Part shown: positions 21,805 through 58,671 of the stretch, piece by piece
Position numbering within the stretch: position 1 is the first letter of the stretch
Layout: every line of letters begins with the position of its first letter
NCBI GenBank assembly: GCA_964016885.1
Contig: OZ024747.1
Coordinates: 20,026,001 to 20,090,000, forward strand
Direction of reading: 5' to 3'
Origin: Eledone cirrhosa
Taxonomy: Eukaryota
Length of the DNA: 64,000 bases
Position numbers and translations under genes: made by a program
Notes under the pieces: generated by a model
What the model was told of the DNA's origin: nothing
Database searches by the model: none
What the model saw: only the letters and a program-made list of their open reading frames with translations

Positions 21805-21895
21805 TATATTACAATTGTTTCTCCGTCGACCAGCTCGAGGTGCCATCTGTTGGTGGATCGAACCTGACTCTGGATTCGAAAGTTCCTCAGATACG
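21805..21895 (-). ncRNA. Hammerhead ribozyme with long stem II, in foldback 21771-22035
   Basis: CGTAT-CTGAGGA-[~60 nt]-GAAA-CAATTG-TA-ATAT; palindromic stem III ACAATTGT; diverged inverted copy at ~21925-22000. Confidence 0.7.
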
Positions 21896-22177
21896 TCTGT
21901 TGGTTTCAAAGCAGATTCTCATTCTGAATGAAGAACTTGCGAAACCAGAGTCAGGTTCGATCCACGAGCTGTTCGCCGGAGAAACAATTGTTGTAATACG
22001 CAATAAATTGAGTTCCAAAGCATCACTGATTCATCGTTTTCCATTTTATATATACATATATATATATATATATGTGTGTATATATAAATATTTGTATATA
22101 TATAAATATATATATATATATATATATATATATATATATATATATATATATATATATATATATATATATATATATAT

Positions 22178-23008
22178 AATAATAAATTTGAAGACTAAAA
22201 TCCAAAGAGGGCTCGATAAGGATAAATATATATCAAATATATAAGAACCGTAGAGCAAATATTTATTAAAATAACAGATTAAAGTTTAAGAAAAGAATCG
22301 CTGCTTTCACCCTTAACGGGATCTTCTGAAACTAAAAAAATCAATCTGTCAACGCAGAAGTAAATATTTCAAAAAACGTTGGAACCGAAGGAAGACAGGA
22401 AGACGATACTTTGGCAAAGAACGGGAAAAAAAGAACGGAAAAAGAACGGGAAAAAAACGAAGATAATACGTGTAGCAGTGAAAACAATTACACGCAAAGA
22501 CAAAACCACGTTTATAAATAAATACCTCTGTATGTTATTTACTTTATTCTTAACTCTGTGGTCGAGAATCTTTCGGTTTCCTAAATAGGATTTTAGTCTA
22601 CGACTTCTGTTCTACTATTTACGTGGTTTCGTCTTTGCGTGTAATTGTTCTCACCGCTCCAAATAATGACGTATTATTTCCGTTCATTGCCAGAGAACGT
22701 CTCTATGAACCACCTTATAGAATATTAGTCTACGACTTCATTTATACAATAAACGTGGTTTTGTCTTTGCGTGTAATTGTTTTCACCGCTCCAAATAATG
22801 ACGTATTATCTTCGTTTTTTTCCCCGCTCTTTGCCAGGGAACGTTTCCACGAACCAAAGTATCGTTTTCCTGTCTTCCTTCGGTTGCAACGTTTTTTGAA
22901 ATATTTACTTCTGCGTTCACAGATTGACTTTTTTAGTTTCAGAAGATCCCGTTAAGAGTGAAAGCAACGATTCTTTGCTTAAACTTTAATCTGTTATTTT
23001 AATAAATA
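22178..23008. mobile_element. Foldback cassette with variant-core HHRs (22283-22333 minus, 22935-22985 plus)
   Basis: AGTTT-CAGAAGA-[TCCCGTTAAGGGT]-GAAA-GCA..TGC-TT-AAACT; homologs at 8790-8852, 29915-30035 and 50110-50942. Confidence 0.7.
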
Positions 23009-23125
23009 TATATATATATGTGTATATATATATATATATTATATATATATATATATATATGTGAAGTAATTCCGTCGGAAAAGTCCAGGAAAAAAGAGTG
23101 CTCTATGTAGGTAACAGAGCTTAAT

Positions 23126-23417
23126 AGTTATGTAATAAACAACATAAGGCAATAATTCCATTTACCAGTGGTTTCTTAAAAGCAAAAGATTTTGCTTTCA
23201 ATCCTCAGAATGAAAAAATCCTAGTCTGTTTATTGAATTTGAATTTGGATTTTAAAAACAAAAATCAAATTTTTGTTTTTTTGATTTTTGTTTTTAAAAT
23301 CCAAATTCAATAAACAGACCAGGATTTTTTCATTCTGAGGATTGAAAGCAAAATCTTTTGCTTTTAAGAAACCACTGGTAAATGGAATTATTGCCTTATG
23401 TTGTTTATTACATAACT
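23126..23417. ncRNA. Palindromic cassette with two intact HHRs (23157-23214 minus, 23329-23386 plus)
   Basis: TTCATT-CTGAGGA-[TTGAAAGCAAAA tc TTTTGCTTTTAA]-GAAA-CCACTGG-TA-AATGGA on both arms. Confidence 0.85.
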
Positions 23418-23429
23418 GTATATATATAT

Positions 23430-55741: not shown

Positions 55742-58157
55742 AGTATTAGTTATACTATTTATGGTTATGTAAATACAAAACCTTATGCAGTTATAAGTAT
55801 TTTTTATACACACCCTAAATAGTGGTAGGCAGTAATCTATTACTACCTTATTACCAGTAAGTTAAGTAGCTCAATGTAAAAACATCAGATGATTTACAGA
55901 GCAGTTATATGAAATATAAGAATCAAAGAACTGTTCAAAACATTATTGTGCTTACAGCTGTTTCCTCCAAACCGAGGTTTGGCTTCTTCGGAGCAATTCA
56001 TTAATGCATGGACAGTTATATGACCTCCTTTTCAGCCAAGAGACACACCGATACATATGCAAATATTGTGGGTCAACATTCATTACAGAATTTAGAGTGG
56101 CAGTACACACTTCGAGATTACATTCATGTTAAGAGGTACAATCAAAAATCAAAAATACAGGTTAAAATACAACATGAAGATAAGCGGTTATATAGTGCAA
56201 ATGTTATATGTGTGGCAAGCATGTGCGTCTTGTTTATATAGTGTGGTAGAGAGATGTGTGTGGTAGAGGCACTTAGGTAGGTAAACAAGAGTGTTAGGTT
56301 GGTAGATCTGGTGGCAAATTCTTTATATGATTGATATAGTCTGTGTGTGGAGAAATGTTACAAGCATTAAAAATAGTGCAAGCATTAAAATTGTTAAAAG
56401 TATTGGAGATGCACAGCGAAGGGATGTCAAGTATTTCATGTACTTCGACATTTTCATGGTCAGGGGAGTGTATTTTTCGATTATATGCCACTCACATAAT
56501 CCACGACAATTCGATATTGAGCGTTTGACAATCCAGTTAGAGAATCGTAGTCTGATATTCTTTAGTTCAATACAGGAGGCTGTTACGTTTCGAGAAACGA
56601 CATTGAATACCACCCGGAAGTGTGTGTGTGGCTAAGGGGAGTTAATGCATGCGGGGAGGTAACTCCGGGGTTTCTATACCTAGCTATTAAAATGTGTCAC
56701 AATATAGACCCTAATTTCTATGGTGATGCGCATCCACCCAAACAAATTTTTAAAGCATAAAGTGTATTAACTATAGAGTAGTTTAATTAAGTTATGCTGA
56801 AGGTGTTCATATTATTATGGTGGATTAACCCCCATCGTAAGGTGCCACAAATGGATATTATAGATGATGAGCGAGGATTCTAAATTAATGATCTCTGTGG
56901 TTGTAGTCTACTCATAGGACCAGGCGCGGTGATTGCAGGATTGCTTCAGGACCCAATGATCTCTAGTAAGTTCTGGGTCATCGCTTGCTACATTGGATGT
57001 CGAAAGATAATCATCTCCAGGCCGGCCAGAGGTCAATCCGCAGTCCTCACGACCCCTCTCTGACCGCCAGATCATCCATATATGTACAACCCGCACGCCA
57101 GTTGCAATGCATTCATTCTCTGCGCTCAGCATCCTGGTCCTACTGCTCAACAGCGTTACTAGATTAAATCGTTTTTCATCTGTCTAAGGAAGGTGCTTCC
57201 TCCGCACAACACTATCAAACCGATCAATTCATGCTTAAATTACCTATAGAGCGGTGTAGTGCAGTTCAAGTGGGTGGATGTTGTCACACCTGACGTAGAG
57301 GTATAAATGGGTATTCTCCCTGCGAAGGGTTCCAGAGGGATGTCGATGTTTGTGTTATATTAGATCAGTTAGTGTTGGGTATGTAGTATAAGGTGTGCCT
57401 CTGGTGTTTGATGCTAGATGTGGTGTTTGGTTCCAGTCCGACATTGCTATATATTGGGCTTAAAGTTTTGGAAGGAATGTCTGAAGCGGTGCTGGCAAGT
57501 TGCAAACACCTCAGATTTTTTGTTAAGTAGGTTACGGTTGGAGAAGATAATATTGTGTGTCTCTAGTATACAGAGGTTACAAAATTTATTAGGTGGTTTG
57601 TACGAGGTCGCGCTGCCTATCACTTCCCATTTGAGTGTGTATGGTTTATTTTTAGTTTTTAGATAGTGTATGTAGCTAGAAAGTGAGGTGGAGTTGGCTA
57701 GGCTGTGCTTTTTGAACGAGTGGATGTGCGAATTATATCTGATTTTGAAGCAGTTAGAAGTGGAGCCTACATAGGTTTCTGAAGAGTTGCTAGTCGTGAC
57801 GGTGCATGAGTATATGATATCCTTGGTTAGGCATTTTTTATCTAAAGGGCAGGTTCTATTAGCTCTACAGTTACAATTATCCTGTGCGGAAGTCTGTGTT
57901 GTAGCTATAGGATTTGGGGCGTTCGGGTTGTCAACCCTGGTGTTATTACTTATACTAGTGTTATTTCTATTGTTACTGCCGTTGCTATGGTTGCTTGCTA
58001 CAGAGGTATTTAGAGGGTTTGCATCCCGTTGTGATTTTGTTTGTTGGAAGTAAGAATTAATTTTACTATTATTGCTGCTAGCTATGTGGTATGCTAAGTT
58101 AGGCGTAGTAGAGTATGAGATTTTAATGGTGTTTTTGTTTAAGAGGTTATATTTCAT
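55742..58157 (-). mobile_element. 5'-truncated Penelope-like element: GIY-YIG ORF 57447-58157, long 3' region and HHR 55949-55995
   Basis: IKISYSTTPNL...CNCRANRTCPLDKKCLTKDIIYSC...YVGST...RYNSH...CNLCILE; TGCT-CCGAAGA-[AGCCAAACC tc GGTTTGGAG]-GAAA-CAGCTG-TA-AGCA. Confidence 0.9.
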
Positions 58158-58367
58158 ATATATATATATAGAGGTTATATATATAGAGGTTATATATATA
58201 TATAGAGGTTATATTTCATATATATATATATATATATATATATATATATATATATATATATATATATATATATATATATATATATATATTCATATATATA
58301 TATATAAACATATATATATATCACAGAAAAAAGATAAACAGTGATGCGACGAAAGGAATTTATTGAA

Positions 58368-58459
58368 CATATTACAGATGTTTCTCGGGCAACCAGCTCG
58401 ACGCACGATCCATATGGTGATCACACCGGACTCTGAAAGCAACACGGTCGTCAGATACG
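58368..58459 (-). ncRNA. Hammerhead ribozyme with long stem II
   Basis: CGTAT-CTGACGA-[~60 nt]-GAAA-CATCTG-TA-ATATG; related to 21805-21895. Confidence 0.7.
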
Positions 58460-58586
58460 TCTCGATTCTACGAGGCAGATTTTCCAGTTATATATATATA
58501 TATATATATATATATATATATATACATGGTATGTGTTAGACTTTCTTATACGCCATGTATAATCATTTTTCATTACCATTAAAAGG

Positions 58587-58671
58587 GGTCTGACGAGCCG
58601 TGGATTACAGAGTCGGGCTAGATCGATACAGATCGAACCTTGAGCTGATCAGTGGCGAAACACGCGTCACC
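58587..58671 (+). ncRNA. Hammerhead ribozyme with long stem II, intact core
   Basis: GGT-CTGACGA-[GCC..~54 nt..GGC]-GAAA-CACGCG-TC-ACC, followed by AATAAA. Confidence 0.8.

What the first reader, a model, noticed from the sequence alone, without database searches (positions are those of the whole stretch)
21805..58671. Conserved CAGAGTC...GAGCTG module inside the long stem II of three divergent hammerheads
Seen: HHRs at 21805-21895(-), 58368-58459(-) and 58587-58671(+) each have ~60 nt between CTGANGA and GAAA. They differ elsewhere but all keep CAGAGTC-nGG...GATC...GAT...GAGCTG, which can pair as CAG/CTG and TC/GA around an AG/G internal loop capped by a variable hairpin. Inference: a selected RNA module grafted onto stem II, such as a tertiary contact or an RT/protein-binding site. 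I do not recognise it as a described HHR subtype.
Basis: partly seen in the sequence, partly recalled or inferred. Interest (0 to 1): 0.75.

Follow-up and report, generated by a model that had tools for sequence, protein, structure and literature searches.

The report
Conserved loop on retrotransposon hammerhead arm
These three motifs are ends of Penelope-like jumping genes whose predicted self-cutting RNA has an unusually long arm carrying a small loop that stays fixed while the paired bases around it change together; the loop is likely a docking site for a protein, most likely the element's own copying enzyme.

Summary
Confirmed and refined. The three hammerheads are truncated end repeats of three families of Hydra-clade Penelope-like retrotransposons; parent ORFs were found for all three. 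The exact module occurs 6,666 times in this genome (control 1). So the motif is a purine 2x1 loop (AR/G) closed by G-C and U-A in a covarying helix. The same loop sits about 13 pairs further from the core in 78-90-nt stem II families (2,585 hits, control 11), and it is kept in 1,899 copies whose catalytic core reads CCGUCGA. Both favour a protein docking site over a fixed ribozyme contact. Binding, cleavage and expression are untested. Published Hydra hammerheads have 3-7-bp stems II. This scan earlier noted long-armed Hydra hammerheads on other DNA of this genome. Verdict: new variant of a known kind.

The parts
21801..21904 (-). H1: type I hammerhead motif of family A; core CUGAGGA, 62-nt stem II, palindromic stem III (ACAAUUGU), predicted cut after GUA at 21810
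   Evidence: family and parent ORF
21866..21872 (-). H1 module, 5' strand CAGAGUC
21831..21836 (-). H1 module, 3' strand GAGCUG
21683..21803 (-). Rest of the H1 insertion: AAUAAA (21798-21803), conserved tail hairpin ACUC-UG..CA-UA-GAGU (21724-21752), end at a (TA)n-like run near 21683
21919..22046 (+). Inverted, head-to-head partner copy of family A; both module strands kept (21946-21952, 21966-21971), upper hairpin deleted; ends at (TA)n
   Evidence: (46 bits)
58364..58468 (-). H2: hammerhead motif of family B (subfamily of L459/L462); core CUGACGA, 63-nt stem II, predicted cut after GUA at 58373; the insertion spans about 58322-58485 between (TA)n runs
58429..58435 (-). H2 module, 5' strand CAGAGUC
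58394..58399 (-). H2 module, 3' strand GAGCUG
58576..58677 (+). H3: hammerhead motif of family C; core CUGACGA, 60-nt stem II, palindromic stem III (ACGCGU), predicted cut after GUC at 58668; the insertion spans about 58538-58722
58608..58614 (+). H3 module, 5' strand CAGAGUC
58642..58647 (+). H3 module, 3' strand GAGCUG
51018..51090 (-). Decayed copy resembling family G with the 5' half of the module deleted
   Evidence: likeness to L335-L339 judged by eye

Best explanation
The three motifs are end repeats of Hydra-clade Penelope-like retrotransposons whose hammerhead stem II is a long hairpin holding a conserved purine loop (AG or AA opposite G, closed by G-C and U-A), and this loop is likely a docking site for the element's own reverse transcriptase-endonuclease protein. 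Shown: the carrier element, the copy numbers, the fixed loop sequence, the compensatory changes in the helix around it, its occurrence at two distances from the core, and its persistence beside altered cores. Inferred: the RNA is transcribed from just upstream of the hammerhead, the hairpin folds as predicted, the protein grips the distorted helix at the loop, and this would help it pick its own RNA in cis or hold the ribozyme on or off until the particle is built. Genomic copies are made from uncut RNA, since they span the predicted cut site.
For: Parents: 25 of 30 loci found with the family B upstream DNA have the module hammerhead directly downstream; L403 runs tail -> ATG -> RT (RWR, DKT) -> CxCx5C -> GIY-YIG -> 1.75-kb UTR -> stem II module; 17 of 40 related endonuclease loci have a module hammerhead within 3 kb, including H1-type (60-63% identical protein) and H2-type; family C endonucleases are 36-43% identical. 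Selection: 8 of 9 core columns are 13/13 and the ninth 12/13 (a sampling artefact), against 1 of 38 other stem II columns; 12 of 21 pairs show changes on both sides, 0 of 500 shuffles reach the score; RNAalifold finds the module unaided; double changes at G-C, U-A or loop give 15, 0 and 18 hits and no family, double change at the outer pair gives 659. Portability: the same GARU/AGC loop lies 23-26 nt from GAAAC instead of 11 in longer-armed families, 2,585 hits against 11, some with Hydra-type endonucleases upstream. Independence from the core: 1,899 copies pair the module with CCGUCGA, in two lineages; changes at A6 lower cleavage (PMC3088659, passages). Precedent: a Penelope-like hammerhead cuts only with its own protein present (PMC11167929); a bulge and mismatch in the eel UnaL2 3' hairpin are needed for retrotransposition (PMC1636434, abstract).
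Against: No binding, probing or expression data. Published Hydra hammerheads have 3-7-bp stems II (26 rows) and an abundant Hydra family in this genome has an 8-bp stem II, so the loop is not needed for Hydra transposition in general. In the one element tested in vitro, RNA cut back to +20, which removes most of stem II, still supported insertion. The clade-wide tail hairpin is a better candidate for the main enzyme site. In 230-260-nt context the predicted ensemble does not favour the module (closing-pair probability 0.42, 0.00, 0.01, 0.00 in 4 copies, one of them mutated), and single copies H1-H3 fold no better than shuffles. Families were partly collected with patterns that demand the core, and related sequences inflate covariation counts. 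A host protein would fit the same evidence.
Confidence: 0.45

Rival explanations
1. The loop binds a host protein that exports, protects or translates the element's RNA. The arm lies at the predicted 5' end of the RNA, about 260 nt before the start codon, and at the 3' end left by cleavage, just before AAUAAA.
For: A slowly changing host partner explains a loop fixed while the element protein diverged to about 40% identity. 12 of 31 family B fragments begin 31-35 nt before the core and the tail runs into the ATG. Viral type I hammerheads in 5' UTRs promote cap-independent translation (PMC13725137, passages).
Against: No known host motif matched: Rfam gave no hammerhead or relevant family for the window or a clean copy. 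The RNA start is inferred from DNA ends only.
Confidence: 0.22
2. The loop is a tertiary contact that docks on an extended stem I (its A-rich AAUAAA loop) or on a partner ribozyme in the dimer and so activates cleavage.
For: Spacing to the core is tight within the 60-nt families (10-12 nt on the 5' side, 9 on the 3' side). Stem I-stem II contacts activate known hammerheads (PMC3088659). AAUAAA is conserved in 16-17 of 17-18 rows. The shift in long-armed families is near one helical turn.
Against: The loop moves 12-15 nt outward in other families. It persists beside CCGUCGA, CUGAAGGA and CUGAAAGA cores. No partner change accompanies the G-to-A change in the loop that I could see; the tail keeps ACUC.
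Confidence: 0.2
3. The loop is a structural hinge or a mark that makes the long hairpin imperfect (to escape double-stranded-RNA sensing or editing), with no specific partner.
For: Stem II carries several other bulges and mismatches at kept positions; a flexible hinge matters in UnaL2.
Against: A hinge would not need fixed closing pairs: G-C and U-A never covary in 17 of 17 and 7 of 7 rows.
Confidence: 0.08
4. The conservation is only shared ancestry or a DNA-level promoter signal in the end repeat.
For: Module families C, B, A, L and M group together in a quick endonuclease tree (support 89); families A, B and D have a GGTTCGA B-box-like word (recalled consensus).
Against: Neighbouring columns changed freely (median identity 0.42) and in pairs; the two strands stay in helical register across hairpins of 23-33 nt; the B-box-like word is absent in C, F, G, H, J.
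Confidence: 0.05

Closest known systems
Hammerheads of Hydra-clade Penelope-like elements (Craig et al. 2021, PMC8557442; read: passages, section 11, supplement parts 2, 52, 53)
   Same: Type I layout, short near-palindromic stem III, frequent mismatch at the first pair of stem II, place in the end repeat, (TA)n insertion, RWR/DKT/CxCx5C protein motifs, and the same bulged tail hairpin as in two or more published consensus sequences (by eye).
   Different: Published stems II are 3-7 bp with 3-10-nt loops in all 26 rows; here 55-63 nt (78-90 in relatives) with a fixed internal loop. Family B is about 5 kb with a 1.75-kb UTR, against under 3 kb as a rule.
Minimal hammerheads of metazoan Penelope-like elements (Cervera and de la Pena 2014, PMC4209133; read parts 1-2 of 4, no supplements)
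   Same: Minimal palindromic stem III predicted to need dimers; thousands of dispersed copies in families with compensatory changes.
   Different: Their 'large' helix II is 6-8 bp; no internal module is described in the parts read.
Poseidon element of Anolis (Frangieh et al. 2024, PMC11167929; read passages and section 3 part 2)
   Same: Two fixed 3' ends of copies (16 of 31 family B fragments end at +137, others near the tail end); copies come from uncut RNA.
   Different: Other clade; its ORF starts inside stem II; most of stem II was dispensable for insertion in vitro.
3' hairpin of stringent LINEs such as eel UnaL2 (PMC1636434, abstract; PMC4176376, search listing only)
   Same: A small irregularity in a conserved hairpin matters for mobilisation; model for how the loop may work.
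   Different: Unrelated element class and sequence; not part of a ribozyme.
Metazoan non-LTR retrozymes (bioRxiv 10.64898/2026.07.22.740005, parts 1-2 of 5)
   Same: Type I hammerhead in dispersed short copies related to Penelope-like repeats.
   Different: These copies are truncations of protein-coding elements and are mostly single or inverted pairs, not direct tandem non-coding units.

Membership tests
Type I hammerhead ribozyme | Core CUGANGA ... GAAA and NUH cut triplet | tested here: met
   All three; GUA, GUA, GUC
Type I hammerhead ribozyme | Stems I, II, III around the core, open at stem I | tested here: met
   88% of cells paired, compensatory changes in stems I and II; stem I is only 3 bp in H3
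Type I hammerhead ribozyme | G10.1-C11.1 pair | tested here: inconclusive
   Present in H3; A.A in H1, C.A in H2; paired in 7 of 13 families; mismatches here occur in published Hydra motifs
Type I hammerhead ribozyme | Match to an Rfam hammerhead model | tested here: not met
   No hammerhead family among 139 matches with E up to 1 or 14 matches on a clean copy; the long insert probably defeats the models
Type I hammerhead ribozyme | Self-cleavage | not testable with these tools
   No assay; no RNA run listed
Minimal hammerhead of Penelope-like elements | Short palindromic stem III | tested here: met
   ACAAUUGU (H1), ACGCGU (H3); imperfect in H2, whose family has ACGAUUGU
Minimal hammerhead of Penelope-like elements | Located in the end repeat of an RT-endonuclease element | tested here: met
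Minimal hammerhead of Penelope-like elements | Helix II of at most about 8 bp | tested here: not met
   About 22-25 bp with bulges; hence a variant
Hydra-clade Penelope-like element | RWK-like and DKT motifs, CxCx5C linker, C-terminal GIY-YIG | tested here: met
   Found in order in L403; definition
Hydra-clade Penelope-like element | No CCHH motif in the endonuclease | tested here: inconclusive
   None seen by eye in the L401/L403 translations; not aligned to published members
Hydra-clade Penelope-like element | Insertion into (TA)n; inverted partner copies | tested here: met
Hydra-clade Penelope-like element | Placement in an RT tree with published Hydra members | not tested
   Published proteins were not available as tool sequences; only an in-genome endonuclease tree was built
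Non-LTR retrozyme | Non-coding unit in direct tandem repeats | tested here: not met
   Copies extend into a UTR and ORF
Bulged-G (sarcin-ricin) motif, kink-turn or SECIS | AGUA/GAA, or tandem GA/GA pairs (consensus recalled, from no call) | tested here: not met
   The loop reads AGUC/GAG and its G is A in 3,693 copies; three-dimensional likeness is not testable here

The most novel reading that the evidence does not exclude
A portable RNA loop (GARU/AGC) is a recognition element for a telomerase-related reverse transcriptase, and in this lineage the hammerhead is turning from a ribozyme into a protein-binding scaffold: the loop is kept while the catalytic core has twice drifted to CCGUCGA and elsewhere taken insertions. 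That would give a defined RNA handle for the open questions of how Penelope-like enzymes choose their RNA and what their hammerheads are for.
Probability: 0.25. Interest if true: 0.75.

Novelty: new variant of a known kind. Interest (0 to 1): 0.52.

Why it matters
What hammerheads do in Penelope-like elements is unsettled: they cut poorly, one needs its protein, and cutting was not needed for insertion in vitro. A small, sharply defined, covariation-backed motif on the ribozyme, with natural variants (two positions on the arm, AG or AA loop, canonical or altered core), makes this testable with a few mutants. These enzymes are the closest relatives of telomerase, so an RNA element that they recognise would be of wider interest. 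Many thousands of such hammerheads are missed by Rfam models and, probably, by short-stem descriptors.

Tried and rejected
1) The three endonuclease fragments in the window as parents: the 832-aa Hydra family (57447-58208) had the module in 1 of 30 loci, the window itself, and has its own short hammerhead; the 1217-aa and 775-aa families 0 of 30 each. 2) CAGAGTG..CAGCTG hits as covariation: no GAAA follows and they look like LINE coding DNA. 3) A Neptune-like endonuclease upstream of a family F copy (L165): chimeric, 1 of 30 loci. 4) Short non-autonomous SINE: rejected once long copies were found. 5) A switch pairing the module with the tail (CAGAGU with ACUCUG): predicted in 1 of 4 copies, but the tail does not follow changes in the module. 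6) Relatives outside this genome: 79 metagenome and 1 viral pattern hits, none with a hammerhead fold by my pairing screen and by eye. 7) Expression: no RNA holder listed; no reads were laid. 8) A 3' splice site in the tail was considered and not tested. 9) One search used a structure that I mis-indexed; one search replaces it. 10) My early reading that the AG loop is invariant was wrong: patterns demanding CTGANGA hid the GAAUC families. 11) Family I (L171 and others, CAGCAGACTA..GGCTG) has a different loop and was left out of the family counts. 12) The careful tree did not finish; the quick tree is cited.
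Full report
Observation. The module pattern occurs 3 times in the window, with a mean of 0.01 in 100 shuffles. Rfam found no hammerhead family among 139 weak matches. Alone, the three copies fold no better than shuffles (z -1.2, +0.4, -0.7), though H1 and H3 give the proposed pairing. A model built from 17 copies found a fourth, inverted, partly deleted copy at 21919-21997 and several ordinary short hammerheads.

Abundance. The window lies in an unnamed 3.0-Gb animal genome. The exact module plus GAAAC occurs 6,666 times against 1 in the control. 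A scan that asks only for a core and a 50-68-nt stem II gave 8,403 hits against 212; by eye 78 of the first 100 belong to module families, and the rest are other long-armed families or chance. Copies sit in (TA)n, often as head-to-head pairs.

Carrier. None of the three endonuclease fragments in the window is the parent. DNA upstream of a family B copy proved to be element sequence: 25 of 30 loci have the module hammerhead directly after it, and the other 5 have deletions in it. L403 holds a decayed, nearly whole element: inverted end repeat, tail, ATG, RT with RWR and DKT, CxCx5C linker, GIY-YIG endonuclease, 1.75-kb UTR and the module (its 3' copy has lost CUGAGGA). These motifs define the Hydra clade (PMC8557442, section 11). 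Of 40 loci of related endonucleases, 17 have a module hammerhead within 3 kb and 23 showed none; among the 17 are H1-type and H2-type copies. Family C endonucleases, upstream of H3-type repeats in 3 of 30 loci, are 36-43% identical to that of B. In a quick tree of 55 endonuclease pieces, C, B, A, L and M group apart from the short-stem Hydra family with support 89, not starred. Parents of F, G, H, J and K were not found; they share the tail hairpin in a fraction of copies, except K (0 of 3).

Selection on the module. 180 copies fell into 24 clusters; the 13 with at least 3 members (168 copies) were compared, and 11 small clusters were dropped. Eight of nine columns of GAGUC/GAGC are identical in all 13; the ninth is 12 of 13, the exception being a 3-copy cluster in which two copies were picked by a pattern that demanded a change there. 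One of 38 other stem II columns is invariant, and their median pairwise identity is 0.42 (ungapped columns, so somewhat low). The predicted fold puts the module in the same register in 12 of 13 families (the ninth column of that small cluster was set to C for folding). On 17 real copies, 88% of cells pair, 12 of 21 pairs change on both sides, 0 of 500 shuffles reach the score and slid controls give 26-43%; relatedness inflates such counts. RNAalifold predicts the module unaided. Patterns that forbid the usual letters gave 659 hits for the outer pair (whole families with UGG/CCA), 83 for the C-G pair (decayed copies, a satellite and one family with another loop), 15 for G-C, 0 for U-A and 18 for both sides of the loop. 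Those patterns required CTGANGA; families with other cores show UAG/CUA again and GAAUC in place of GAGUC (3,693 hits, control 0). The motif is therefore N-N', N-N', G-C, AR opposite G, U-A, C-G, then a bulged pyrimidine and usually two G-C pairs.

Two results bear on function. That pattern has 2,585 hits against 11. In 7 copies G-C and U-A never vary while 4 of 10 pairs change on both sides; the pair above U-A is G-U or unpaired there. Four of 26 such loci examined have a Hydra-type endonuclease ending about 500 nt upstream. Second, 4,640 module copies have cores starting CCG (control 1), and 1,899 read CCGUCGA, in a C-derived and an A-derived lineage; related families have one extra base in the core. 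Changes at A6 and an insertion after it lower cleavage in tested ribozymes (PMC3088659, passages). The repeated arrival at CCGUCGA could also mark a tolerated, active variant; this is untested.

Place in the RNA. Of 31 family B fragments, 12 begin 31-35 nt before the core and 16 end at +137; most others end near the tail end. In L403 the tail runs into the start codon. Penelope-like transcripts start in the upstream repeat (review PMC6765202, passages), so the arm likely lies both at the RNA's 5' end and, after cleavage of the 3' copy, at its 3' end. This is inferred from DNA ends.

Mechanism. A loop whose letters and closing pairs are fixed while the helix around it only needs to pair, and which moves along the arm, is what a protein site looks like. 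I put protein binding at about two in three, the element's own protein at 0.45 and a host protein at 0.22; a ribozyme contact at 0.2. For the own protein: the Anolis element's hammerhead cuts only with its protein (PMC11167929) and LINE hairpin irregularities matter for mobilisation (PMC1636434, abstract). Against: short-armed Hydra elements thrive, most of stem II was dispensable in the Anolis assay, the tail hairpin is the clade-wide candidate, and folding of 230-260-nt leaders did not favour the module in 4 copies.

Novelty. Hammerheads in Penelope-like elements are known (PMC4209133, parts 1-2 of 4). All 26 Hydra rows in the supplement of PMC8557442 have 3-7-bp stems II, though the descriptor used may miss long ones. 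Eight paper searches listed no description of this module; I read only the parts named. Lunse et al. was not held, and the supplements of PMC4209133 and of the bioRxiv preprint were not seen; they may bear on this. No relative was seen in metagenome or viral contigs, and no other animal genome could be searched. Earlier unchecked notes of this scan describe long-armed Hydra hammerheads and a repeated small loop in other families of this genome; I tested the loop myself. Verdict: a real, selected RNA motif on a known kind of element; new variant; function inferred; interest 0.52.

Noticed in passing
L501-L525; G000 genome-wide: The core CCGUCGA (U4C plus A6U) arose in two separate lineages and spread to at least 1,899 copies; other families have CUGAAGGA or CUGAAAGA.
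   Followed up: partly
window 21724-21752(-); also published Hydra-1_Ajap, Hydra-2_Ajap: Bulged tail hairpin (A/G)CUC-UG..CA-UH-GAG(U/C) just beyond the first 3' end is shared by most module families and by sea cucumber Hydra elements.
   Followed up: partly
window 27020-27112(+); L418-L421: Other long-armed hammerhead families (about 50-nt stem II with CCAUUGG or CUCAAUGG) that lack the module but have their own conserved words.
   Followed up: no
L559-L573, L582-L584: Hammerheads with 94-98-nt AU-rich stems II and no GARU/AGC loop seen.
   Followed up: no
L171, L182, L185, L189, L191, L194, L198: Family I: 57-60-nt stem II with CAGC/GCUG closing a different loop (AGA/CCG).
   Followed up: no
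window 57447-58208(-) and UTR beyond 56300: Truncated copy of a young 832-aa Hydra-clade element with a 1.5-kb UTR holding a GC-rich stretch and an 8-bp stem II hammerhead with a CCGAAGA core.
   Followed up: partly
window 16568-16969(+); L331-L334: Endonuclease of a young Neptune-like family with a 775-codon RT-endonuclease frame overlapped by an upstream 410-codon frame, and a deviant hammerhead core.
   Followed up: partly
window 28012-28554(-); L098: Endonuclease of a very young Penelope-like family with a 1,217-codon frame; clade not determined.
   Followed up: partly
window 9422-9490, 12242-12313, 16377-16438, 23154-23389, 23779-23849, 30214-30283, 31631-31698, 50576-50653: Many further short-stem hammerhead motifs of other repeat families, several as inverted pairs.
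   Followed up: no
window 36416-37822(-), 37880-39911(-), 42978-46391(+): Decayed LINE-type retrotransposons with reverse transcriptase frames.
   Followed up: no
G000:C19:7644363-7647606: A 49-bp tandem satellite that matches the hammerhead core pattern in every unit.
   Followed up: no
stem I of families A-F: Stem I may extend beyond 6-7 bp with the AAUAAA signal in an internal loop (by eye).
   Followed up: no
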